Source: a phage. From it: 64,000 bases of DNA. This document shows, piece by piece, positions 1-58,581 of the stretch. Location: sequence record PZ445429.1; one strand, written 5' to 3'. How positions within the stretch are numbered: the first letter of the stretch is position 1; the number at the start of each line of letters is the position of its first letter. The position numbers and the translations under genes are program-made. The notes beneath the pieces were generated by a model. The model saw nothing but the letters and a program-made list of their open reading frames with translations. It did not search any database and was not told the origin of the DNA.

Positions 1-1317
1 ATGAAAGTCTCTAGAGACTATATTAACACCACAGATGTTATTGACTTTGGTATTGACAAACGATTTTTCCGTCTGCCAGTCTCTAGCATTCTAGCTCAAG
101 AGGGAATTACACCTAATGCTCCTCAGATTGCAATCATTAATGCGCTGGAAGACCCAAGACACCGTTTCGTAACTGCGTGTGTATCACGTCGTGTAGGTAA
201 GTCATTCATCGCATATACACTTGGGTTCTTAAAACTTCTGGAACCCAATGTGAAGGTGCTGGTAGTTGCACCTAACTACTCACTGGCTAACATCGGTTGG
301 TCACAGATTCGTGGTCTTATTAAGAAATATGGATTACAGACTGAACGTGAGAACGCCAAAGATAAAGAGATTGAACTAGCGAATGGTTCTCTCTTTAAGC
401 TGGCTTCCGCGGCGCAGGCTGACTCCGCGGTTGGTCGTTCATATGACTTCATCATTTTTGACGAAGCAGCGATTTCCGACGTTGGTGGTGCAGCTTTCGA
501 TATTCAGTTGCGTCCTACTCTAGATAAGCCAAACTCTAAAGCTCTGTTTATTTCCACACCTCGTGGTGGTAACTGGTTTAAAGAGTTCTACGAGAAAGGA
601 TTTAATGAAACGCTACCTAACTGGGTATCTATTCATGGTACATACCGTGATAACCCACGTGCTGACCTGAACGATATCGAGGAAGCGCGTCGTACTGTTA
701 GTAAAAACTATTTTCGTCAAGAATATGAGGCTGATTTCTCCGTATTCGAAGGTCAGATCTTTGATACCTTCAATGCTATCGAGCACGTTAAAGACCTCAA
801 AGGTATGCGTCACTTCTTTAAAGATGATGAGGCTTTCGAAACATTACTTGGTATCGACGTTGGTTATCGTGACCCTACAGCAGTTCTTACTATCAAGTAT
901 CACTATGATACTGATGTTTATTACGTATTAGAAGAGTATCAGCAGGCTGAAAAGACTACAGCTCAACACGCTGCTTACATACAGCACTGTATAGATCGTT
1001 ATAACGTTGATCGTATATTTGTAGACTCCGCTGCTGCTCAGTTCCGTCAGGACTTAGCATATGAACATGAAATCGCTTCTGCTCCTGCTAAGAAATCTGT
1101 CCTAGATGGTCTGGCATGCCTACAAGCACTGTTCCAGCAAGGTAAGATCATCGTAGATGCTTCATGTACCTCACTGATCCACGCCCTAGCGAACTACAAG
1201 TGGGACTTCCAGGAGGGCGAAGAGAAATTATCACGTGAAAAACCACGTCATGATGCGAACTCTCACCTTTGTGACGCACTACGTTATGGAATTTACTCAA
1301 TTTCCCGTGGGAAATAA
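1..1317 (+). CDS. terL: Terminase large subunit (T5 TerL-like, 438 aa)
   Basis: Full-length ORF from window base 1; Walker B-like DFIIFDEAA; C-terminal nuclease-like region; position immediately upstream of portal gene. Confidence 0.85.
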   Translation: MKVSRDYINTTDVIDFGIDKRFFRLPVSSILAQEGITPNAPQIAIINALEDPRHRFVTACVSRRVGKSFIAYTLGFLKLLEPNVKVLVVAPNYSLANIGWSQIRGLIKKYGLQTERENAKDKEIELANGSLFKLASAAQADSAVGRSYDFIIFDEAAISDVGGAAFDIQLRPTLDKPNSKALFISTPRGGNWFKEFYEKGFNETLPNWVSIHGTYRDNPRADLNDIEEARRTVSKNYFRQEYEADFSVFEGQIFDTFNAIEHVKDLKGMRHFFKDDEAFETLLGIDVGYRDPTAVLTIKYHYDTDVYYVLEEYQQAEKTTAQHAAYIQHCIDRYNVDRIFVDSAAAQFRQDLAYEHEIASAPAKKSVLDGLACLQALFQQGKIIVDASCTSLIHALANYKWDFQEGEEKLSREKPRHDANSHLCDALRYGIYSISRGK

Positions 1318-1431
1318 ATAAGTATAGGATGGGATACTACTCAGTTGGTATCCCATTCCTGCATTTTAAAATCCCCTTTACAAATTCGACATGATTATGT
1401 ATACTATATTCATACAGTTGAGGAGAATACT

Positions 1432-1869
1432 GTGGCAGGAAATGTAAAATATAAACGTGATGCTATATCACTCATGCGAGACGGTATAAAAAGTCAATAT
1501 AAAAAAGCCGATCGCTGCGAAATCTGTGGTTGTGGTGAAGAATTAGAGCTTCATCATTACCATACAGTGTCTCTACTAGTTAAAAAATTTGCTAAAGAAC
1601 TCCAATTGGATTTCACTGACGAAGAAACAGTCCTCTCAAATAGGACGGCATTCTATGAAAGATATAGGCATGAGCTAGTAGATGACACTGTTACCCTTTG
1701 TGTCCACCATCACCAACTATTACATAAGGTGTACACTAAAGAACCTCCCCTTTTCTCTGCTAATAAGCAGAAGGCATGGGTTCTTAAACAAAAGGAAAAG
1801 CTACAGAATCCTCAAGAAAAGACACAAGTCAAGACTGAAACTAAATCAGGATTCGCAAGGTTCTTATAA
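1432..1869 (+). CDS. HNH endonuclease (free-standing, between terminase and portal)
   Basis: CEICGCG...HHYH...CVHHHQLLH zinc/HNH motifs; GAGGAG RBS at 1420-1425 followed by in-frame GTG at 1432 (ORF track begins at 1345 with upstream ATG; true start uncertain). Confidence 0.7.
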   Translation: MAGNVKYKRDAISLMRDGIKSQYKKADRCEICGCGEELELHHYHTVSLLVKKFAKELQLDFTDEETVLSNRTAFYERYRHELVDDTVTLCVHHHQLLHKVYTKEPPLFSANKQKAWVLKQKEKLQNPQEKTQVKTETKSGFARFL

Positions 1870-3086
1870 TGGGTTTAAAAAGCTGGATTACTGAAAAGCT
1901 AAATCCGGGTCAACGTATTATAAGAGACATGGAACCAGTTAGTCATCGCACTAACCGTAAGCCATTTACCACTGGACAAGCCTACAGTAAGATTGAGATT
2001 CTCAACCGAACTGCTAACATGGTTATCGATAGTGCGGCGGAGTGTTCTTATACTGTCGGAGATAAATATAATATTGTCACGTACGCTAATGGCGTCAAGG
2101 CAAAGACTCTAGACACTCTCTTAAATGTACGACCTAATCCATTCATGGATATAAGCACATTCCGTAGACTTGTAGTCACTGACCTACTTTTTGAGGGTTG
2201 TGCATACATCTATTGGGATGGCACAGCACTTTACCATGTCCCTGCTGCACTAATGCAAGTAGAGGCAGATGCCAATAAGTTTATCAAAAAATTCATATTT
2301 AATAACCAGATAGACTATCGCGTAGATGAGATTATCTTTATAAAGGATAACAGTTACGTGTGTGGCACAAACTCCCAAATTTCTGGACAATCTCGTGTTG
2401 CTACAGTTATTGACTCTCTTGAGAAGCGTTCTAAAATGCTTAACTTTAAAGAGAAGTTCCTCGATAACGGCACTGTGATTGGTCTTATTCTTGAGACGGA
2501 TGAAATCCTGAACAAGAAATTGCGTGAGCGTAAACAAGAAGAATTACAACTCGATTATAATCCTAGTACGGGTCAGTCTACTGTCCTGATTCTAGATGGT
2601 GGTATGAAAGCAAAACCGTACTCCCAAATATCCTCTTTTAAAGATCTAGACTTCAAGGAAGATATCGAAGGATTTAATAAATCCATCTGTCTTGCCTTTG
2701 GTGTTCCGCAAGTGTTACTTGATGGTGGTAATAATGCTAACATTCGACCAAACATCGAATTGTTCTATTACATGACTATCATTCCTATGCTGAACAAGCT
2801 GACTAGTTCTCTTACTTTCTTCTTTGGCTACAAGGTTACTCCTAATACTAAGGAAGTAGCTGCACTGACGCCAGATAAAGAAGCTGAGGCTAAACATTTA
2901 ACCTCTTTGGTTAATAACGGTATCATGACTGGTAACGAGGCTCGTGAAGAGCTTAACCTTGAACCTTTAGATGATGAGCAGATGAATAAGATTCGTATTC
3001 CTGCTAACGTTGCTGGTTCTGCAACAGGTGTATCTGGTCAAGAAGGTGGTAGACCGCAAGGCACTGCCGATGGGGATAAAGAATGA
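1869..3086 (+). CDS. Portal protein (T5 pb7-like, 405 aa)
   Basis: Size and position after terminase; start overlaps stop of upstream ORF; conserved order portal-decoration-protease-capsid. Confidence 0.8.
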   Translation: MGLKSWITEKLNPGQRIIRDMEPVSHRTNRKPFTTGQAYSKIEILNRTANMVIDSAAECSYTVGDKYNIVTYANGVKAKTLDTLLNVRPNPFMDISTFRRLVVTDLLFEGCAYIYWDGTALYHVPAALMQVEADANKFIKKFIFNNQIDYRVDEIIFIKDNSYVCGTNSQISGQSRVATVIDSLEKRSKMLNFKEKFLDNGTVIGLILETDEILNKKLRERKQEELQLDYNPSTGQSTVLILDGGMKAKPYSQISSFKDLDFKEDIEGFNKSICLAFGVPQVLLDGGNNANIRPNIELFYYMTIIPMLNKLTSSLTFFFGYKVTPNTKEVAALTPDKEAEAKHLTSLVNNGIMTGNEAREELNLEPLDDEQMNKIRIPANVAGSATGVSGQEGGRPQGTADGDKE

Positions 3087-3673
3087 TTGATTATGATGGT
3101 CTAAAGGCCATTTTTGGTGAAAAGCTGCCAGAATCTCATATCTTCTTTGCTACGGTTGCAGCACACAAGTTCGTTCCAAACTATGCTACTCTACGTAAAG
3201 AGTTTGGAATGACCACTGCACATACCAACCGCAAGGTTTGGAATAAGTTCAAAGAAGCATACGAAGTTACTGCTCCGGTTGTTCCAAACTATGCTACTCT
3301 ACGTAAAGAGTTTGGAATGACCACTGCACATACCAACCGCAAGGTTTGGAATAAGTTCAAAGAAGCATACGAAGTTACTGCTCCGGTTGTTCCGGCTATA
3401 GCTTTCACGAAGAATCTGGCTAAAACTCTAGCTGTTGATACTGGTGCAGCAATTAATCTGGGCGTAACAGTTACTGGTGGTACTGCACCATATACTTATG
3501 CTTGGACTAAAGACGGTTCTCCACTTAGTGGTGTTACTGGCCCTAATTTCAACAAAGCTACAGCTGCTGCAGAAGATGCTGGTACTTACAAAGTTGTTGT
3601 AACGGATAGCAAATCTACTTCCATTACTTCTAATGAGTGTGTAACAACTATCAACCCTGCGCTGGGGGCTTAA
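3083..3673 (+). CDS. Capsid decoration protein with C-terminal Ig-like domain (T5 pb10-like), carrying an internal 36-aa tandem duplication
   Basis: C-terminal Ig-like signature (TVTGGTAPYTYAWTKDGSPLSGVTGPNF...AGTYKVVVTD); position between portal and protease; 196 aa, which is 160 aa without the duplicated unit. Confidence 0.7.
   Translation: MIDYDGLKAIFGEKLPESHIFFATVAAHKFVPNYATLRKEFGMTTAHTNRKVWNKFKEAYEVTAPVVPNYATLRKEFGMTTAHTNRKVWNKFKEAYEVTAPVVPAIAFTKNLAKTLAVDTGAAINLGVTVTGGTAPYTYAWTKDGSPLSGVTGPNFNKATAAAEDAGTYKVVVTDSKSTSITSNECVTTINPALGA
3173..3388. repeat. Perfect 2 x 108-bp tandem direct repeat inside the decoration-protein CDS
   Basis: Unit gttccaaactatgctactctacgtaaagag...gctccggtt at 3173-3280 is repeated identically at 3281-3388; in frame (36 codons: VPNYATLRKEFGMTTAHTNRKVWNKFKEAYEVTAPV x2). 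Confidence 0.95.
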
Positions 3674-3676
3674 TAA

Positions 3677-4309
3677 ATGACAAATGCTGCTATTGACTAT
3701 AACAAGTTAAAATCAGCACCGGTTCATTTAGACGCTTACATTAAGTCTATTGATAGCGAATCCAAAGAGGGTGTTGTAAAAATCCGTGGATTCGCTAATA
3801 CAATTAGTAAAGATCGCGCTGGTGACGTAATTCCTGCTTCGGCATGGAAAACGTCTAATGCACTTGCTAACTACATGAAAAACCCGATTATTCTTTTCGG
3901 CCACGACCATCGTCGTCCAATCGGCAAGTGTATTGATCTTAACCCTACTGAAATGGGTCTCGAAATTGAATGCGAGATTTATGAAAGTTCTGATCCAGCT
4001 ATCTTCTCACTAATTAAAAACGGTGTACTGAAAACCTTCAGTATCGGATTCCGCTGCCTAGACGCAGAATGGGATGAAGCTACTGACATATTTATTATTA
4101 AAGATTTAGAACTATACGAAGTTTCGGTAGTTTCTGTACCTTGTAATCAGGACTCAACGTTCAACCTCGCTAAGAGTATGAATGGCCACGATTACACTGA
4201 ATGGCGCAAATCTTTTACTGCAACAAGTTCTAAGGCTGTCCCAGCTCAAGAACGTAATCTTTCTGAACTAGAAAAACTTGCGATAGCTTTAGGCTACGTT
4301 AAAGAATAA
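3677..4309 (+). CDS. Prohead maturation protease (T5 pb11-like, 210 aa)
   Basis: Size identical to T5 pb11; sits directly upstream of major capsid gene. Confidence 0.75.
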   Translation: MTNAAIDYNKLKSAPVHLDAYIKSIDSESKEGVVKIRGFANTISKDRAGDVIPASAWKTSNALANYMKNPIILFGHDHRRPIGKCIDLNPTEMGLEIECEIYESSDPAIFSLIKNGVLKTFSIGFRCLDAEWDEATDIFIIKDLELYEVSVVSVPCNQDSTFNLAKSMNGHDYTEWRKSFTATSSKAVPAQERNLSELEKLAIALGYVKE

Positions 4310-4326
4310 CGGAGAATTATTTAAAA

Positions 4327-5703
4327 ATGACTATTGATATTAATAAGCTGAAGGAAGAACTTGGTCTGGGTGATCTGGCTAAATCTCTGGAAGGTCTGAC
4401 TGCTGCTCAGAAAGCTGCGGAAGCTAAGCGTCTGCGTGAAGAGCAGGAAGAAAAAGAATTGGCTCGTATGAACGACCTAGTATCTAAAGCTGTTGGTGAA
4501 GACCGTAAGCGTCTGGAAGAAGCTCTGGATCTGGTTAAGAACCTGGATGAGAAGTCTAAGAAGAGCGCAGAACTGTTTGCACAGACTGTAGAAAAGCAAC
4601 AGGAAACCATCGTTGGTCTTCAGGACGAAATCAAGTCTCTGTTGGCAGCTCGTGAAGGTCGTTCCTTCGTTGGTGATAGCGTAGCTAAAGCTCTTTATGG
4701 CACTCAGGATGTTTTCGAAGATGAAGTTGAGAAACTGGTTCTTCTGTCTTATATGATGGAGAAAGACGTATTCGAAACTGAACATGGTAAGGCTCACGTT
4801 AAAGCTGTTAACGGTTCTTCTTCCGTTTCCATGTCTAGCGAAGCATACGAAACTATCTTCTCTACCCGTATTATCCGTGACCTGCAGAAGGAACTGGTAG
4901 TTGGCGCACTGTTCGATGAACTGCCAATGTCCAGCAAAATCCTTACTATGCTCGTTGAACCAGAAGCTGGTCGTGCTACTTGGGTAGATGCTTCCAAATT
5001 CGGTACTGACGAAACTGTTGGTGACGAAGTTAAAGGTCAACTGACTGAAATCAGCTTCAAAACTTACAAGCTGGCTGCTAAATCCTTCATCACTGATGAA
5101 ACTGAAGAAGATGCAATCTTCTCCCTGCTGCCTCTGCTGCGTAAGCGTCTGATCGAAGCACACGCTGTTTCTATCGAAGAAGCTTTCATGTCTGGTAATG
5201 GTACTGGTCAGCCTAAGGGTCTGCTGAAACTGGCTGCTGATGATGGTGCTAAGGTTGTTACCGAAGCTAAAGCTGACGGTTCTGTTCTGGTAACTGCTAA
5301 GACTATCTCCAAGCTGCGTCGTAAACTGGGCCGTCACGGTCTGAAACTGAGCAAACTGGTACTGATCGTATCTATGGATGCTTACTACGATCTGCTGGAA
5401 GATGAAGAATGGCAGGATGTTGCCCAGGTTGGTAACGATGCTGTTAAACTGCAGGGTCAGGTTGGTCGTATTTACGGTCTGCCGGTTGTAGTTTCTGAGT
5501 ACTTCCCAGCTAAAGCTGCTTCCGCTGAATTCGCAGTTATTGTTTATAAAGATAACTTCGTAATGCCGCGTCAGCGTGCCGTTACTGTTGAACGTGAGCG
5601 CCAAGCTGGCAAACAGCGTGACGCATACTACGTTACCCAGCGTGTTAACCTGCAACGTTACTTCGAAAACGGCGTTGTATCTGGTGCTTACGCTGCATCT
5701 TAA
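4327..5703 (+). CDS. Major capsid protein precursor (T5 pb8-like, 458 aa) with N-terminal coiled-coil scaffold (delta) domain
   Basis: 458 aa; N-terminal about 150 aa charged coiled-coil (scaffolding-like), HK97-fold-like remainder; strongly host-optimised codon usage (ctg/cgt/ggt) suggesting very high expression; followed by terminator. Confidence 0.85.
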   Translation: MTIDINKLKEELGLGDLAKSLEGLTAAQKAAEAKRLREEQEEKELARMNDLVSKAVGEDRKRLEEALDLVKNLDEKSKKSAELFAQTVEKQQETIVGLQDEIKSLLAAREGRSFVGDSVAKALYGTQDVFEDEVEKLVLLSYMMEKDVFETEHGKAHVKAVNGSSSVSMSSEAYETIFSTRIIRDLQKELVVGALFDELPMSSKILTMLVEPEAGRATWVDASKFGTDETVGDEVKGQLTEISFKTYKLAAKSFITDETEEDAIFSLLPLLRKRLIEAHAVSIEEAFMSGNGTGQPKGLLKLAADDGAKVVTEAKADGSVLVTAKTISKLRRKLGRHGLKLSKLVLIVSMDAYYDLLEDEEWQDVAQVGNDAVKLQGQVGRIYGLPVVVSEYFPAKAASAEFAVIVYKDNFVMPRQRAVTVERERQAGKQRDAYYVTQRVNLQRYFENGVVSGAYAAS

Positions 5704-31547: not shown

Positions 31548-31595
31548 TGTGTATATTATACAATAATTATGAGCAGTTGCCAAATGCAATTTTAC
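31548..31595 (-). promoter_or_regulatory. Second tandem sigma70-type promoter (TTGGCA, 17 nt, TATAAT) immediately downstream of the HNH gene
   Basis: On - strand: -35 at 31578-31583, -10 at 31555-31560; downstream leader near-duplicate of the one at 31427-31460. Confidence 0.5.
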
Positions 31596-32122
31596 TTATC
31601 TAAGTCCTCACGTCGGCAAATATATCCTTTGAATAGTTCTTGCCTGGAATCCATACCTAGATGCTGTGCTCTAAGTTCGTTAGCTTTATTTATAGCTAAC
31701 TCTAATTCTTCATAAGGGAATAACCCACCATATATTTTAACACCTATACAGTTAGTTATTTCTACTTTCCATTTAGAAGAGTTAGTATCCCAGTGTATAC
31801 CTAAGTATCCCGAAGTACTTCTAGTGTTTCTGTTTCTGCAGTTTTGCTGATGTGTGATCTCTCGCAAGTTATTCCATCTATTATCCCATCTTATACGATT
31901 AATATGGTCTATCTCTTCAGGAAACCTGCCTTCCATGTATAGGAAGGCTAGCCTATGCGCAGGATAAGATATTTTATCTATTTTTATATAGACATAACCA
32001 TTAGAATTACGAGACCCCGCAATACTTCCTTTCGCAGCTCTACCTTTAGCTACTCTACGAGTAAAATCACCTGTATCTGGATTATACTCGAAAAGTTCTT
32101 TGAGCTTATCTTGTGTTATCAT
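31592..32122 (-). CDS. HNH homing endonuclease with AP2-like DNA-binding domain
   Basis: HNH region (YPAHRLAFLY...IDHINRIRWDNRWNNLREITHQQN) plus AP2-like segment (GYLGIHWDTNSSKWKVEI...YGGLFPYEELELAINKANE). Confidence 0.75.
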   Translation of the reverse strand: MITQDKLKELFEYNPDTGDFTRRVAKGRAAKGSIAGSRNSNGYVYIKIDKISYPAHRLAFLYMEGRFPEEIDHINRIRWDNRWNNLREITHQQNCRNRNTRSTSGYLGIHWDTNSSKWKVEITNCIGVKIYGGLFPYEELELAINKANELRAQHLGMDSRQELFKGYICRREDLDK

Positions 32123-53032: not shown

Positions 53033-53072
53033 GACTACTATTATAACTCATTCGAAGGCGGATGTCAACAAT
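53033..53072 (-). promoter_or_regulatory. Consensus sigma70 promoter (TTGACA, 17 nt, TATAAT) for nrdD
   Basis: On - strand: -35 at 53063-53068, -10 at 53040-53045. Confidence 0.65.
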
Positions 53073-53112
53073 ATTTTACTATAAAGTTCTGTAACATGAT
53101 CTGAGTCAAAAA

Positions 53113-53150
53113 ATTTTATTTGCCAACCTCTACTAAAAATAGTATAATCA
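53113..53150 (+). promoter_or_regulatory. sigma70-type promoter (TTGCCA, 17 nt, TATAAT)
   Basis: -35 at 53120-53125, -10 at 53143-53148; A/T-rich upstream. Confidence 0.55.
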
Positions 53151-54359: not shown

Positions 54360-54482
54360 GACAGACGAGCCTGGGTATGAAAATATCCGGGCTCTTTTTA
54401 TCTGTAAAATTGTACTTGCTAAATGACTGAGAATAAAGTAAACTATTTCCTAAATCCTGATAACTACAAAAAGGAAAGCCAA

Positions 54483-56813
54483 ATGAGCCATCGCATCGAA
54501 AAAGTAATTAAACGTGACGGTACTGTTCAGGACTTTGCTCCTGAAAAACTCAATGATTGGGCTGCATGGGCATGTAAAGATACTGACGTAAGTTGGTCTG
54601 CCGTAGTTATGGCTGCCCTGAAAAATCTACCCAAAGGTGTTGTAGATTCCGATACACTCCAAGATGTGTTAATTAAAGCTGCTGAAGGTCTTATCAAAGA
54701 CAATCCAGCATATGATACTGTAGCAAAGGAATTACGTCTTGCGCAGATGCGTAAACGCCTCTATGATTCCTTCGAACCACCTTCTCTACGTTTCTTCCAC
54801 GATCATATGGTTCGTGTCGGCGCTTGGGAAGACATGAGTGCATGGATTAGCGATGATCAGTTTGACGCTCTGAACCAAGTTATTGATCATGATCGCGATC
54901 GTTTATTCACCAGTGGTGGACTGAAACAGTTCTTCGACAAGTATTCCCGTCGTAATATTGCAACTGGTGAAATTTATGAAACCCCGCAGTTTGCCTACAT
55001 GGGTATGGCAATGGCGATGCTATCTCAACCTAACTGGACAATTCTCGATGCAATCGACCTCTACAACGCAATGTCACTCCATAAAATCAACGTGCCGACT
55101 CCACCTCTCGTGGGTCTTAGGAGCAGCGACCGCGGTTTTGCTTCTTGTTGTCTTGTTGATAGTACTGATACCCTCGATTCAATCGACACAGCCGAGCACA
55201 TCGTCTTCAAAATGGTCGCAGCCAGAGCGGGAATCGGGTATCATCTTGAAAGCCGATCAATTGCTGATCCGGTGCGAAATGGGGCATTCCCGCATTCCGG
55301 AAAACTGCCATATTATCGACACATTGACCGATCAGTAAAAGCTAACACTCAGCAAACCCGTGGTGGTTCTGCTACTGTGTCTTACCCATACTTCGATCCT
55401 GAAATCATTCAGTTGATGCAGGTTAAGCAGCAACGTGCTACAGACGAGAATAAAATCGATAAGATGGATTACTCTCTGAGCTTTAACAACCTTCTGTTAA
55501 AACGTTACCTGAAAAATGAAGATATTACGCTAATGTCCTACTTCTACGCACCAGAAGTTCATGAAGCGTTTTATGGCGAAGATGAGGCTAAGTTTGAAGA
55601 AATCTACGTGGCAGCGGAGAAACGTGTGGCATCTCTTACAAAGATCGACCACGAAGGAAAAACAATTCCAGCAGCTCCTAGAATCTCTGCAAAAGAAATC
55701 CTAGATACTTGGTTACGTATCCGTATGGAAACAGGGCGTATGTATGCTCATCACATTGGTGAATCTAACCGTCATGGTAACTTCCTTGACCCGATTCGTA
55801 TGACCAACCTTTGTGTTGAAATTACTCAGCCAACCCGTCCATTCCATCACATTACGGAGCTGTATAAGACCCAAGATCAGTTAGACGATATGCGTCCAGA
55901 AGATATTGGTGAAGTATCTCTGTGTAACTTAGGTGGTGTTGTACTAGGTCGTATGGAATCTCTGGCTGAATGGGAGAAAACTTGCTACATTCTTCTGAAA
56001 TTCGTTGATACAATCATCGAGATTCAGGATTACCCATTCCCAACTATGGAGTACACGGCTAAGAAACGTCGTAACGTTGGTATTGGTCTGATGAACGCAG
56101 CAGGTGCAATGGCAGCAGAAGGTTTGGCTTACGAAGGTGTTGAAGCCCGTAACTGGATTCACCGTGAAGCTGAAAAGCTGTCCTACTTCCTACATAAAGC
56201 CTCTGTACGTCTGGCTAAAGAACAAGGTGCATGTGACTGGTTTAATCGTACTAAGCCTTCGCAAGGAACTCTGGTAATCGACACGTACAAGAAAACTGTT
56301 GATGAACTGGTAACTGTAGGTCTAGAAATGGATTGGGAATCTCTGCGTGCAGATATTCTGAAATATGGTATGCGCAACTCTGTTCTGACTGCTCAGATGC
56401 CAGGTGAAAGTTCCTCTGTACTGCTAGGTGTTACTAACTCTATCGAACCGCCCCGTAAGATCGTATCTATCAAGGGTAGTGCAGTGAATAAAGTAATTGC
56501 AATTGCTCCAGGTGCAACTGATTGGGATACATTAATGAGCTATAAACTGGCTTATGATGTAGATCGTATCGAGTGGATCAAATGGGTAGCAACCATGCAG
56601 AAATTCTTCAGCCAGTCTATCAGTACGAATATGTACTATGACTACACCAAGTTCGAGAATGAAATCATTCCCGGCCCAGTAGTAGTTCGTGACTTTATGA
56701 CTGCTGTTAAGTACGGTTGGAAAACTTGGTACTACGCTAACTTCAACACTGAAAATGGTGGTGGAGCTGGTGAAGAAGCAGCAGGTTGTGCATCAGGTGG
56801 TTGTAACCTATAA
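54483..56813 (+). CDS. nrdA: Ribonucleoside-diphosphate reductase, alpha subunit
   Basis: N-terminal ATP-cone (VIKRDGTVQDF...LNDWAAWA); class I RNR large-subunit active-site region; start chosen at MSHRIEK after AAAGGA RBS (ORF track starts 54423). Confidence 0.9.
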   Translation: MSHRIEKVIKRDGTVQDFAPEKLNDWAAWACKDTDVSWSAVVMAALKNLPKGVVDSDTLQDVLIKAAEGLIKDNPAYDTVAKELRLAQMRKRLYDSFEPPSLRFFHDHMVRVGAWEDMSAWISDDQFDALNQVIDHDRDRLFTSGGLKQFFDKYSRRNIATGEIYETPQFAYMGMAMAMLSQPNWTILDAIDLYNAMSLHKINVPTPPLVGLRSSDRGFASCCLVDSTDTLDSIDTAEHIVFKMVAARAGIGYHLESRSIADPVRNGAFPHSGKLPYYRHIDRSVKANTQQTRGGSATVSYPYFDPEIIQLMQVKQQRATDENKIDKMDYSLSFNNLLLKRYLKNEDITLMSYFYAPEVHEAFYGEDEAKFEEIYVAAEKRVASLTKIDHEGKTIPAAPRISAKEILDTWLRIRMETGRMYAHHIGESNRHGNFLDPIRMTNLCVEITQPTRPFHHITELYKTQDQLDDMRPEDIGEVSLCNLGGVVLGRMESLAEWEKTCYILLKFVDTIIEIQDYPFPTMEYTAKKRRNVGIGLMNAAGAMAAEGLAYEGVEARNWIHREAEKLSYFLHKASVRLAKEQGACDWFNRTKPSQGTLVIDTYKKTVDELVTVGLEMDWESLRADILKYGMRNSVLTAQMPGESSSVLLGVTNSIEPPRKIVSIKGSAVNKVIAIAPGATDWDTLMSYKLAYDVDRIEWIKWVATMQKFFSQSISTNMYYDYTKFENEIIPGPVVVRDFMTAVKYGWKTWYYANFNTENGGGAGEEAAGCASGGCNL

Positions 56814-56822
56814 TAAAAACAA

Positions 56823-56850
56823 GGAGATCTTCGGGTCTCCTTTTTTCTTT
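56823..56850 (+). terminator. Rho-independent terminator after nrdA
   Basis: Hairpin ggagatc-ttcg-ggtctcc followed by TTTTTTCTTT. Confidence 0.75.
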
Positions 56851-56854
56851 GAAA

Positions 56855-56891
56855 TTTTACTTGCTAATCGCTACCAGATTTGCTATAATAT
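56855..56891 (+). promoter_or_regulatory. sigma70-type promoter (TTGCTA, 17 nt, TATAAT) upstream of HNH and nrdB
   Basis: -35 at 56861-56866, -10 at 56884-56889; aaatttt upstream. Confidence 0.65.
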
Positions 56892-56913
56892 CTCTATATT
56901 AAGGAGATATACT

Positions 56914-57432
56914 GTGAAACCTCAACTAACAAAAGAATTTCTAGAGAAATATCTAGAACTCAGAGAAGATACTCTCTATTGGAAGCCAAGAGAGACTAAT
57001 AAAGGTGGATTTAATACTAGATTTGCTGGAAAACCTGTAGGAGCCGTCAATGGAAATGGCTACCTATGCTTCCGACTTAACGTGGAAGGTTATAGATGGG
57101 AATTAAGAAATCATGTAGTAATCTTCTGTCTCTATTATGGATATTACCCAACTAAGACAGTAGACCATAAAGATACAAATAAACTTAATAACCATCCTTT
57201 AAATCTACGAGAATCAACCGATGCTGGTAATGCCCAAAATAGGGGAGCCGGTAAAAACAATACCCATGGACATAAAAACCTAGAGCCTCTTAGTTCAGGA
57301 AACTGGAGGGTTAGGATAACACACAACGGTACTGTTTACAGATCTTCCGCAATGCCTCTAGAAAAAGCTCTAGAACATAGAGATATTAAACTTAAAGAAT
57401 TTCATGGCGAATACGCTAATAATGGAGAATAA
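56914..57432 (+). CDS. HNH homing endonuclease with AP2-like domain, inserted between nrdA and nrdB
   Basis: HNH region (VDHKDTNKLNNHPLNLRESTDAGNAQN) plus AP2-like (GNWRVRITHNGTVYRS...LEKALEHRD); AAGGAG RBS then GTG at 56914. The ORF-track ATG at 56755 lies inside nrdA and the terminator and is rejected. Confidence 0.7.
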   Translation: MKPQLTKEFLEKYLELREDTLYWKPRETNKGGFNTRFAGKPVGAVNGNGYLCFRLNVEGYRWELRNHVVIFCLYYGYYPTKTVDHKDTNKLNNHPLNLRESTDAGNAQNRGAGKNNTHGHKNLEPLSSGNWRVRITHNGTVYRSSAMPLEKALEHRDIKLKEFHGEYANNGE

Positions 57433-57435
57433 TTA

Positions 57436-58581
57436 ATGACAACCTTACTAAATCTGAACTGGAATCCTGATTCTGAAGAGCTATTTCTCGGAGATGCCCT
57501 GGGAGTAGCAGACTATGTTCGTGTTGCTCATCCAGAGCTAGAACGACTCGCACTATTACAGAGGAGCCAGTTTTGGACTGAAACTGAAATCAGTCTAGAA
57601 AGTGACAAAAAGCAATGGCCTAATCTTCCAAGAGAAATACAAGAAATCACTCTGCTGAACTTAGCTTGGCAGGTTCAAACAGATTCTTTCATTAGCCGTG
57701 CTCCTGAAGCAGCTATTATGCCGCTTGTAAGCCGTCCTGAATTGGAGGGTATGCTCAAGCAGTGGAGCTACTTCGAAGATCTGCACAGCCGTGCGTATAG
57801 TAATATTATTCGTAACGTTCTGACTGATCCAGCAGAATTTATTGATTCTGTAACTAAAAACCAAGAAGCATTTGCACGTATCGCAGATTCTGTTGAACTG
57901 TTTGATGAATTGTATCTGTTAGGTCAGTATTTCCTTGCAGTACGTGATCATCGTGGTGATAATACTTATCCAGAAACTGAGTTCCCTGAAGTTAAACGTG
58001 AAACTCAGGCTAAGCTGTTAGATGCTTACTTTGCAATCTACGGTCTGGAAGCAATGCAGTTCTACGCATCCTTTGCATGTACCTTTGCTCTAGCAGAGAA
58101 CGATATTCTGCAAGGTATTGCTAAGAACCTGCAATTAATCGCTAAAGATGAAGCTCTACATACTCAAATGTCTAAAGCTATCATCCAGATTATGTTTCAG
58201 CAATTTGATAAAGATCTGGTAGATGAAGCATTAGCTAAAGCACCAACACAACTCCTAAAAACTCTGAAAACTGAGATTGAATGGGGTCATTTTATCTTTA
58301 AAGGCCGTAGTCTGATTGGTTTGAACGCAGAACTGCTTGAAGAATACCTTTACTTTGTAGGACGTAACGCATTTATGCACATTGGTGTAGAATGGCCAAG
58401 CCACTTACCTGTAATTACTAAGAACCCTATTCCGTGGATCATGAACTGGTTGGATACTACATCTTTACAACCTGCTCCGCAAGAGATTCAGATTGGCGCA
58501 GCATATCGTGTAGGTCAAGTCACAGAAACATCTATGGATACTCTGAAAGATCTTGGCAACGAATTTGAGGGTATGTTCTAA
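57436..58581 (+). CDS. nrdB: Ribonucleoside-diphosphate reductase, beta subunit
   Basis: Ferritin-like di-iron / tyrosyl-radical protein; 381 aa; follows nrdA. Confidence 0.85.
   Translation: MTTLLNLNWNPDSEELFLGDALGVADYVRVAHPELERLALLQRSQFWTETEISLESDKKQWPNLPREIQEITLLNLAWQVQTDSFISRAPEAAIMPLVSRPELEGMLKQWSYFEDLHSRAYSNIIRNVLTDPAEFIDSVTKNQEAFARIADSVELFDELYLLGQYFLAVRDHRGDNTYPETEFPEVKRETQAKLLDAYFAIYGLEAMQFYASFACTFALAENDILQGIAKNLQLIAKDEALHTQMSKAIIQIMFQQFDKDLVDEALAKAPTQLLKTLKTEIEWGHFIFKGRSLIGLNAELLEEYLYFVGRNAFMHIGVEWPSHLPVITKNPIPWIMNWLDTTSLQPAPQEIQIGAAYRVGQVTETSMDTLKDLGNEFEGMF

What the first reader, a model, noticed from the sequence alone, without database searches (positions are those of the whole stretch)
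56823..57432. HNH-AP2 homing endonuclease inserted between nrdA and nrdB with its own terminator and promoter
nrdA and nrdB are normally adjacent or coupled. Here a 172-aa HNH-AP2 ORF with a GTG start and AAGGAG RBS, preceded by a terminator and a consensus promoter, sits between them. This is a classic free-standing homing endonuclease targeting a conserved nucleotide-metabolism locus, and likely mediates marker exclusion in mixed infections.
Basis: partly seen in the sequence, partly recalled or inferred. Interest (0 to 1): 0.5.

Follow-up and report, generated by a model that had tools for sequence, protein, structure and literature searches.

The report
Homing endonuclease between phage nrdA/nrdB
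A selfish, mobile HNH-AP2 nuclease gene sits between the two ribonucleotide-reductase genes of a T5-like Salmonella phage, borrowing the resident nrdB promoter; it is a well-supported but ordinary, already annotated kind of phage homing endonuclease.

Summary
The window is a T5-like phage (Epseptimavirus, 99.3% to Salmonella phage rokbiter). The ORF is real: GTG 56914 to stop 57432, 172 aa, AAGGAG RBS. It has an intact I-HmuI-like HNH_3 domain and a C-terminal AP2 fold, which Pfam misses on this protein but the predicted structure and its homologs show.

It is a free-standing homing endonuclease gene. It occurs in 32 of 444 related phage records, and about 255 have an empty spacer. The HEG plus the first 240 nt of nrdB (783 nt) is identical between backbones whose flanks differ by about 3%. 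Against a near-isogenic empty phage (nrdA 99.9% identical), that nrdB tract is only 73% identical. dN/dS is about 0.02.

Both are backbone elements, present unchanged in empty phages and in T5. The cassette replaced nrdB's 29-nt leader and supplies a new nrdB RBS.

Three further HNH-AP2 lineages use the same 107-nt spacer, including T5 hegH/P-TflVIII and AKFV33 orf096. This hotspot, and its parallel to T4 mobE, was published in 2012. Cleavage and target site remain inferred. Low novelty.

The parts
54423..56813 (+). nrdA (class Ia RNR large subunit), upstream neighbour
   Evidence: Pfam ATP-cone, Ribonuc_red_lgN and Ribonuc_red_lgC. It is 99.9% identical over 54500-56813 to the insert-free phage beppo.
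56821..56848 (+). Intrinsic terminator of nrdA (hairpin 56821-56842 plus T-run). This is a backbone element, not part of the insert.
   Evidence: It is present in insert-free phages and in T5.
56861..56889 (+). Resident sigma-70-type promoter of nrdB (TTGCTA, 17 nt, TGcTATAAT). A backbone element, now driving HEG plus nrdB.
   Evidence: It is identical in empty phages. The 86-nt promoter/leader query is at least 95% identical in 384 of 391 matching records. T5 RefSeq annotates a 'promoter' at this place.
56892..57435 (+). The inserted cassette (544 nt). It replaces the 29-nt native nrdB leader TCCTGAAATAGTGAGAAAGAGGAAAATCA.
   Evidence: Junction alignment with empty phages. The spacer is 622 nt here versus 107 nt when empty.
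56901..56906 (+). RBS AAGGAG of the HEG, 7 nt before the GTG start
   Evidence: The RBS and GTG are conserved in rokbiter, TrudiGerster, HZ_ZJUN2 and EH7.
56914..57432 (+). HNH-AP2 homing endonuclease gene (172 aa, GTG start). The N-terminal beta-hairpin region is followed by HNH_3 (aa 67-107, nt 57112-57234) and an AP2-like domain (aa ~121-167, nt ~57274-57414).
   Evidence: PHROG 99, 2e-40; I-HmuI; H85, N97, N106, N109 near-invariant.
57424..57427 (+). Replacement RBS (GGAG) for nrdB. It lies inside the last codons of the HEG, and the HEG stop is 3 nt before the nrdB ATG.
   Evidence: The B and C lineages also supply an nrdB RBS in their 3' ends.
57436..57675 (+). Co-converted 5' tract of nrdB (nt 1-240) that travels with the HEG. 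It is the probable location of the target/immunity determinants.
   Evidence: There are 64 differences in nt 1-240 against beppo (73% identity), then 3 differences in the next 446 nt. The tract is 100% identical in 28 HEG-A records and detectable in only 41 of 444 records.
57436..58581 (+). nrdB (RNR small subunit), downstream neighbour and probable target gene
   Evidence: Pfam Ribonuc_red_sm.

Best explanation
This is a free-standing homing endonuclease gene of the HNH_3 + AP2 family ('lineage A').

**Architecture (shown).**
- A 544-nt cassette sits immediately after the -10 box of the resident nrdB promoter. It replaces nrdB's 29-nt leader.
- The HEG is therefore the first cistron of the nrdB transcript. 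It has a weak GTG start, and it provides a new GGAG RBS for nrdB in its own last codons.

**Mechanism (inferred).**
- In a cell co-infected with a T5-like phage that lacks this cassette, the enzyme binds a site in or next to the first ~240 nt of nrdB. Binding would be through its AP2 domain and N-terminal hairpins.
- It nicks or cuts there with its I-HmuI-like His-Me finger.
- Recombinational repair then copies the HEG and the adjoining nrdB 5' tract from the donor.
- The donor is immune because its own nrdB 5' tract is heavily recoded and its leader is disrupted.

The shown steps are domain architecture, intact catalytic residues, insertion anatomy, sporadic distribution, the linked tract, a cassette younger than its backbone, and purifying selection. 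The inferred steps are cleavage, nick versus double-strand break, exact target, and inheritance bias.
For: **1. Nuclease.**
- Pfam HNH_3 at 1.1e-10.
- D84/H85/N97/N106 align with I-HmuI D74/H75/N87/N96 and are invariant or nearly so in 44 homologs.

**2. DNA-binding module.** The model shows an AP2 fold, and 22 of 44 homologs hit Pfam AP2.

**3. Sporadic distribution.**
- The region occurs in 444 phage records, and lineage A in 32 of them.
- The native junction is intact in 298.
- Other lineages: B 75, C 29, D 43 records.

**4. Co-conversion.**
- Against beppo, nrdA is 99.9% identical. nrdB nt 1-240 is 73%. nrdB from nt 241 to nt 990 is 93-100% per 60-nt window.

**5. Cassette younger than backbone.**
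- There are 0 differences in 783 nt against SH9 and phiST45, whose flanks differ by about 3% (P about 1e-10).
- HEG dS is 0.12-0.23, against 0.67-0.86 for distal nrdB, in HZ_ZJUN2 and TrudiGerster.

**6. Linkage.** All 32 lineage-A records carry the A-type tract. Only 9 other records do.

**7. Selection.** dN/dS is 0.01-0.04, for example 63 synonymous versus 10 non-synonymous changes against EH7.

**8. Precedent.** T4 MobE sits between nrdA and nrdB and nicks T2 nrdB at nt 122-126, with recombination points in the first 189 nt (PMC2790892). That position aligns with codons 40-41 of this nrdB. It lies beside the densest synonymous recoding cluster, nt 120-135.
Against: - No biochemical or genetic data exist for this or any T5-like nrdA-nrdB HEG in the literature I could search.
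- The target could not be pinned. Differences fixed between A-bearing and empty genomes are scattered over nt 45-231.
- Two phages (mar003J3, 1-23) carry the A-type nrdB tract without HEG A. So the tract is not strictly dependent on the HEG.
- HZ_ZJUN2 carries HEG A with a different nt 1-135.
- T5-like phages are generally mosaic, so ordinary homologous recombination contributes to the pattern.
- Selection as strong as on a core gene is also what a domesticated gene would show.
Confidence: 0.8

Rival explanations
1. Stagnant passenger. The gene is a once-mobile HEG that no longer cuts any extant target. Its patchy distribution and linked tract would reflect ordinary homologous recombination among mosaic T5-like phages, using the highly conserved spacer and nrdB as crossover points.
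For: - T5-like genomes are visibly mosaic in this region.
- The upstream spacer is nearly invariant and would serve as a recombination anchor.
- The A-type tract exists without HEG A in mar003J3 and 1-23.
- A B-lineage copy (bastian) is frameshifted, so decay does occur at this locus.
Against: - All five lineage-A copies examined are intact, with dN/dS about 0.02 over dS up to 1.1.
- The catalytic residues are conserved.
- The 783-nt block is identical across backbones that differ by about 3% on both sides, with coincident right-hand boundaries at nrdB nt ~240. That is hard to obtain by untargeted recombination.
Confidence: 0.1
2. Domesticated gene. The HNH-AP2 protein now serves the phage. 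It could act as an AP2-type DNA-binding regulator of nrdB or early genes, or as a weapon or anti-defence nuclease. It would be kept by selection on the phage rather than by homing.
For: - Purifying selection equals that on nrdB.
- It is the first cistron of the nrdB operon and supplies nrdB's RBS, so loss is constrained.
- HEG-derived DNA-binding domains have been co-opted elsewhere (PMC10448857). SegB has been shown to aid immune evasion (PMC13096335 abstract).
Against: - It is absent from 93% of related records, and about 57% have nothing in the spacer.
- Four non-orthologous lineages alternate at the site. That is what selfish elements do, and is not expected of a conserved phage function.
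- No function-specific evidence was found.
Confidence: 0.08
3. Not a homing enzyme at all. It would be a packaging-associated or genome-nicking HNH, like HK97 gp74-type terminase cofactors or the enzyme that makes the T5 genomic nicks.
For: HNH proteins can have such roles, and T5-like genomes carry site-specific nicks (PMC10644984 abstract).
Against: - It is located in the early nucleotide-metabolism cluster, not next to terminase.
- It is absent from most T5-like phages, all of which package DNA.
- Its closest structural and sequence relative is the intron homing nickase I-HmuI.
Confidence: 0.02

Closest known systems
T5 hegH (T5.095, 'putative H-N-H-endonuclease P-TflVIII'), my lineage B
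   Same: - Same phage family and same spacer.
- Same insertion point after TATAATAT of the same promoter, and a homologous 5' leader.
- Abuts nrdB and has the same HNH_3 + AP2-type architecture.
- It also travels with its own nrdB 5' tract: nt 1-135 is 99% identical between T5 and bastian.
   Different: - Only 31% amino-acid identity to the window protein.
- TTG rather than GTG start.
- Linked to a different nrdB allele.
- Present in 75 records versus 32.
- Never characterised experimentally, as far as I could find.
AKFV33 orf096 / Sds2 HNH, my lineage C (Niu et al. 2012, PMC3326045)
   Same: Same site and same family. The paper explicitly notes an HNH between nrdA and nrdB in T5-like phages, calls the region a hotspot, and compares it with mobE.
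   Different: - 35% identity to the window protein.
- Its ATG lies 7 nt after the -10 box, so a leaderless mRNA is predicted.
- It overlaps the nrdB start (ATGA).
Phage T4 MobE (Wilson & Edgell 2009, PMC2790892)
   Same: - A free-standing HNH HEG in the nrdA-nrdB spacer.
- It has no promoter of its own and depends on resident transcription.
- It targets the 5' end of nrdB (nick at nt 122-126), with co-conversion of nrdB 5' sequence.
   Different: - No detectable sequence homology (BLASTP E 0.04 over 19 aa). MobE is a different HNH subfamily without AP2.
[quoted passage not shown] Here the HEG lies downstream of the nrdB promoter, after the nrdA terminator.
- Unrelated phage family.
I-HmuI (PDB 1U3E), SPO1 intron-encoded HNH nickase
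   Same: - Best sequence and fold match for the catalytic core plus N-terminal hairpins.
- Same D-H...N...N catalytic motif.
   Different: - I-HmuI is intron-encoded.
- It uses a C-terminal helix-turn-helix rather than AP2.
- It targets DNA polymerase.
HNH + AP2 homing endonucleases (Magnani et al. 2004, as cited in PMC10448857; 'IPA-HNH' of ICP1-like phages)
   Same: N-terminal HNH plus C-terminal AP2 architecture, free-standing, clustering next to essential genes including RNR.
   Different: The IPA-HNH domains are too divergent for the Pfam HNH_3 model. Here HNH_3 is detected and AP2 is the cryptic half.
Hef of phage U5 (Sandegren et al. 2005, as cited in PMC2988022)
   Same: A different endonuclease that occupies the mobE position and also cuts nrdB. 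This is precedent for alternative HEGs competing at one nrd site.
   Different: T-even background and an unrelated protein.

Membership tests
Free-standing homing endonuclease gene | Encodes a nuclease domain with intact catalytic residues | tested here: met
Free-standing homing endonuclease gene | Separate ORF in an intergenic position, not inside an intron or intein | tested here: met
   The ORF lies wholly in the nrdA-nrdB spacer. nrdA and nrdB are uninterrupted.
Free-standing homing endonuclease gene | Presence/absence polymorphism at the same locus among close relatives | tested here: met
   32 of 444 records carry it, and 298 keep the native junction. beppo, 99.9% identical in nrdA, is empty.
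Free-standing homing endonuclease gene | Co-conversion of flanking markers, with a cassette whose history differs from the backbone's | tested here: met
   The 240-nt nrdB tract is 73% identical against an otherwise identical backbone. The 783-nt block is identical across backbones about 3% apart. HEG dS is 3-6 times lower than that of distal nrdB.
Free-standing homing endonuclease gene | Site-specific cleavage or nicking of the HEG-less allele | not testable with these tools
   Needs enzyme assay or in vivo break mapping.
Free-standing homing endonuclease gene | Super-Mendelian inheritance in mixed infection, dependent on the catalytic motif | not testable with these tools
   Needs phage crosses.
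AP2 domain (PF00847) | Pfam AP2 model matches the protein | tested here: not met
   No AP2 hit even at E<=10. HHalign against the AtERF1 domain gives probability 2%, E 0.022, though in the expected register.
AP2 domain (PF00847) | Homology through family members, and the three-stranded sheet plus helix fold | tested here: met
T4 MobE family | Sequence homology to MobE | tested here: not met
   BLASTP best E is 0.04 over 19 residues. It works like MobE and sits like MobE, but it is not a member.
T5 hegH / P-TflVIII orthologue group | Same insertion site and orthologous protein | tested here: inconclusive
   Same site and a homologous leader, but only 31% identity. It is either a deeply diverged allele of one ancestral insertion or a replacement.

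The most novel reading that the evidence does not exclude
Lineages A, B and C all sit at exactly the same nucleotide position, and each is locked to its own recoded nrdB 5' allele. They may form an allelic competition system in which each enzyme cuts the nrdB alleles linked to the others as well as empty sites, so that HEGs displace one another. One observation suggests this. Bastian's nrdB carries a B-type tract (nt 1-~135) laid over the distal remnant of an A-type tract (nt ~162-231). If so, the locus offers a natural matrix of HNH-AP2 specificities and matching immunity alleles.
Probability: 0.25. Interest if true: 0.5.

Novelty: already known. Interest (0 to 1): 0.25.

Why it matters
As a finding it mainly confirms textbook behaviour. 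Free-standing HEGs home to conserved nucleotide-metabolism genes and drag flanking sequence with them.

Two points have practical value. First, several GenBank records mis-call this ORF: 'hypothetical protein', or a 220-aa ORF that starts inside nrdA and runs through the terminator and promoter. Second, the promoter and terminator belong to the phage, not to the element.

The comparative data narrow the probable target to about 270 nt, the native leader plus nrdB nt 1-240. They also provide natural donor/recipient pairs that are near-isogenic (beppo or 118970_sal2 versus rokbiter or the window phage). That would make a homing and marker-exclusion experiment in a T5-like phage straightforward. 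No T5-like nrd HEG has been characterised.

Tried and rejected
- **Pfam AP2 on the protein itself.** No hit. HHalign of a 7-sequence profile against the AtERF1 AP2 domain gave probability 2%. Both were superseded by the structure prediction and the homolog scan.
- **First word-indexed protein search.** It returned only 3 homologs, so a profile search was needed.
- **Homology to T4 MobE.** None found.
- **Pinning the target by fixed differences between A-bearing and empty genomes.** The 17-25 fixed sites are spread over nt 32-231 with no single cluster. The nt 120-135 recoding cluster next to the MobE-equivalent position is suggestive only. HZ_ZJUN2 and the metagenomic relative carry other sequences there.
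- **An RBS-sequestering hairpin (ATATCTC/GAGATAT).** Rejected on reading the sequence. Its 5' arm overlaps the -10 box and would lie upstream of the predicted transcription start.
- **An internal terminator like mobE's.** None was found on the + strand between 56843 and 58581.
- **Promoter and terminator pattern counts.** They are not enriched over shuffles, so these were not used as evidence on their own.
- **The frd/thyA divergence figure for HZ_ZJUN2 (51%).** This is an alignment artefact and was ignored.

Full report
**What the window is.** The 2.3 kb around the finding matches 444 phage records, all T5-like (Demerecviridae). The best match is 99.3% to Salmonella phage rokbiter, genus Epseptimavirus. 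The local gene order is nrdD(-), phoH, nrdA (54423-56813), the ORF, nrdB (57436-58581), frd, thyA.

- The ORF runs from GTG 56914 to TAA 57430-57432 (172 aa). AAGGAG lies at 56901-56906, 7 nt upstream.
- Upstream is a 9-bp hairpin with a UUCG loop and T-run at 56821-56848 (-12.5 kcal/mol, z -2.6).
- A promoter-like site, TTGCTA-17-TATAAT with TG, lies at 56861-56889.
- The longer ATG-started ORF (56755) used in the rokbiter and misterkot annotations would run through the nrdA stop, the terminator and the promoter. TrudiGerster, SH9, HZ_ZJUN2 and phiST45 annotate the 519-nt version.

**Domain architecture.**
- Pfam finds HNH_3 (1.1e-10, residues 67-107) and nothing else, even at E<=10. PHROGs gives phrog_99 'HNH endonuclease' at 2e-40.
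- The only solved relative by sequence is the homing nickase I-HmuI (E 0.01 for the single sequence, 5.6e-7 for a profile).
- D84, H85, N97 and N106 align with I-HmuI D74, H75, N87 and N96. H85, N106 and N109 are invariant, and D84 and N97 nearly so, among 44 homologs. That these I-HmuI residues are the catalytic ones is from my own knowledge of that structure.
HHalign against AtERF1 gives probability 2%.
- Two other lines support AP2. 22 of 44 end-to-end homologs match Pfam AP2 (best 1e-10). A confident AlphaFold model (pLDDT 93.6, pTM 0.83) ends in three strands plus a long helix.
- HNH + AP2 is a described HEG family (PMC10448857, citing Magnani et al. 2004).

**The terminator and promoter are not the element's own.** Insert-free relatives have a 106-107-nt nrdA-nrdB spacer. 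These are 118970_sal2, beppo and GreteKellenberger, plus DaisyDussoix from the sister genus Tequintavirus. Their spacer contains the same terminator and the same promoter, followed by a 29-nt leader (TCCTGAAATAGTGAGAAAGAGGAAAATCA) and the nrdB ATG.
- In the window everything up to TATAAT-AT is identical to these phages. From 56892 a 544-nt cassette replaces the 29-nt leader.
- The upstream 79 nt is more conserved than the coding flanks. HZ_ZJUN2 shows 1 difference in 79 nt, against 10.7% divergence in nrdA.
- The T5 RefSeq record annotates a promoter at this place.
- So the HEG is promoterless. It has captured the nrdB promoter, become the first cistron, and carries a replacement nrdB RBS (GGAG 57424-57427) in its last codons, with its stop 3 nt before the nrdB ATG.
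- There is no terminator-like site between HEG and nrdB.
- Even without the insert, nrdA and nrdB are separate units here, not 'coupled'.

**Distribution.** Of 444 records with the region:
- 32 carry this gene at >=95% amino-acid identity, and nothing lies between 60% and 95%.
- 298 keep the native promoter-leader-nrdB junction.
- 75 carry a different HNH at the very same nucleotide position. This is lineage B, which is T5's own hegH / P-TflVIII.
- 29 carry a third, lineage C, which is AKFV33 orf096.
- 43 carry a fourth, lineage D ('F-TflVI' in one annotation). It is inserted at a second site directly after the nrdA stop, upstream of the resident promoter.
- A, B, C and D are 30-44% identical to each other.
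- Roughly 255 records (57%) have nothing in the spacer.
- A more distant metagenomic T5-like phage (NrdA 70% identical) has a 74%-identical lineage-A gene at the same position.

**Signature of mobility.**
- *Against a near-isogenic empty phage.* Compared with beppo, the window's nrdA stretch from 54500 to the stop is 99.9% identical and the spacer is identical up to the insertion point. The first 240 nt of nrdB carry 64 differences (73% identity, 11 amino-acid changes). Only 3 differences follow in the next 446 nt.
- *Among A-bearing backbones.* The HEG cassette plus nrdB nt 1-240 (783 nt) shows 0 differences against SH9 and phiST45. Their flanks differ by 0.9-4.2% (pooled about 3%; P about 1e-10). 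Against SH9 the identical block ends at nrdB nt ~260, matching the edge of the divergent tract.
- *Synonymous divergence.* For TrudiGerster and HZ_ZJUN2, dS of the HEG (0.23, 0.12) is 3-6 times lower than that of distal nrdB (0.86, 0.67).
- *Linkage.* The A-type tract is detectable in only 41 of 444 records, and these include all 32 A-bearers.
- *Lineage B behaves alike.* nrdB nt 1-135 is 99% identical between T5 and bastian, which belong to different genera, but 86% just beyond.
- Together this is the expected footprint of homing with co-conversion. It places the recognition or immunity determinants within the leader plus nrdB nt 1-240.

**Selection.** All five lineage-A copies examined are intact. 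dN/dS is 0.01-0.04, for example 63 synonymous versus 10 non-synonymous changes against EH7. This is the same as for nrdB itself (0.024-0.027). It argues for a working protein. On its own it does not distinguish an active HEG from a domesticated gene, but the patchy distribution does.

**Comparison with what is known.**
- T4 MobE is a free-standing, promoterless HNH HEG between nrdA and nrdB. It nicks T2 nrdB at nt 122-126, and recombination points fall in the first 189 nt (PMC2790892).
- That position aligns with codons 40-41 here. It lies next to a cluster where six consecutive codons (L-L-Q-R-S-Q) are synonymously recoded between A-type and empty alleles.
- MobE is not a sequence homolog, so the resemblance is convergent.
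- I could not pin the target. Fixed A-versus-empty differences are dispersed over nt 45-231, and HZ_ZJUN2 has a different nt 1-135.
- Hef of phage U5 is precedent for alternative HEGs hitting nrdB from the mobE position (PMC2988022).
- For T5-like phages, Niu et al. 2012 already reported an HNH between nrdA and nrdB in AKFV33. They described it as a counterpart of T5 P-TflVIII, called the region a hotspot, and drew the mobE analogy (PMC3326045).
- Several GenBank records already label this exact gene 'homing endonuclease' (S116, SE24, TrudiGerster, BSP22A).
- Only three T5 HNH enzymes, all in the tRNA region, are reported as characterised. None is at nrd.

**Verdict.** The regulatory interpretation is wrong in an instructive way: the element parasitises the resident nrdB promoter. 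Activity, target and marker exclusion remain inferences. The kind of element, its family, its location and even this gene's annotation are already in the public record. Novelty is therefore low and interest modest.

The least ordinary aspect is that three deeply diverged lineages share one insertion point, each with its own nrdB 5' allele. There is also one apparent overwrite: bastian has a B-type tract at nt 1-~135 over an A-type remnant at nt ~162-231. This hints at HEG-versus-HEG competition and would be straightforward to test.

Noticed in passing
window 31592-32122 (-): A second member of the same HNH_3 + AP2 family (176 aa). It scores 2e-61 against the family profile and is about 25-27% identical to the nrd HEG. 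It is another probable free-standing HEG in the window.
   Followed up: partly
L002 (bastian) 2416-2945 vs L019 (T5 hegH): Bastian's lineage-B HEG is 97% identical to T5 hegH for 136 aa, then shifts frame inside the AP2-like domain. The T5-type C-terminus (KEYVKTLPTLEEAIEYRD...) is readable in the +1 frame. This is either a decaying copy or a sequencing error.
   Followed up: partly
L002 (bastian) nrdB nt 1-240, compared: Bastian's nrdB is T5/B-type for nt 1-~135, A-type for nt ~162-231, then common backbone. It looks like a B cassette written over an older A-type conversion tract.
   Followed up: partly
L004 (Sds2) 2380-2400; also AKFV33 orf096: The lineage-C HEG has its ATG only 7 nt after the TATAAT box and no RBS. 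That predicts translation from a leaderless mRNA. Its stop overlaps the nrdB start (ATGA).
   Followed up: no
L005 (mar003J3) 4068-4580: Yet another HNH ('P-TflX', 170 aa) sits between nrdB and frd in mar003J3. In the window nrdB and frd overlap at 58581 with no insert. The nucleotide-metabolism cluster therefore has several HEG slots.
   Followed up: no
L006 (SB6) 2373-3153: A partial tandem duplication of the lineage-D HEG: a truncated 108-aa copy followed by a full 160-aa copy.
   Followed up: no
L020 (metagenomic contig) 117-605 and 688-3924: A distant T5-like phage has a 304-aa intein-like insertion in NrdA (begins CYSADTEIL, ends ...VCGN|S). It also has a further HNH_3 ORF upstream of nrdA, in addition to the lineage-A HEG before nrdB. 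That makes three mobile elements around one RNR operon.
   Followed up: partly
window 57463-57480 (NrdB residues 10-15): A hypervariable patch in NrdB differs between alleles: NPDSEE (A-type), DHTNAD (empty), DHTNKD (B-type), DPATKD (HZ_ZJUN2). The surrounding residues are conserved.
   Followed up: no
L005 (mar003J3) and L015 (1-23), nrdB nt 1-240: Two phages carry the A-type nrdB 5' tract (95-97% identical) with the native leader intact and no HEG A. Both carry the lineage-D HEG at the other site. They may be resistant empties or the ancestral background of lineage A.
   Followed up: partly
window 53040-53148: Back-to-back promoter-like sites lie between nrdD and phoH. One is a perfect TTGACA-17-TATAAT on the - strand and the other an 11/12 match on the + strand. 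T5 RefSeq annotates promoters in the corresponding region.
   Followed up: no
L003 (rokbiter) 2271-2933; P0001: rokbiter and misterkot annotate the HEG as a 220-aa 'hypothetical protein' starting inside nrdA and spanning the terminator and promoter. This is probably a wrong start call.
   Followed up: yes
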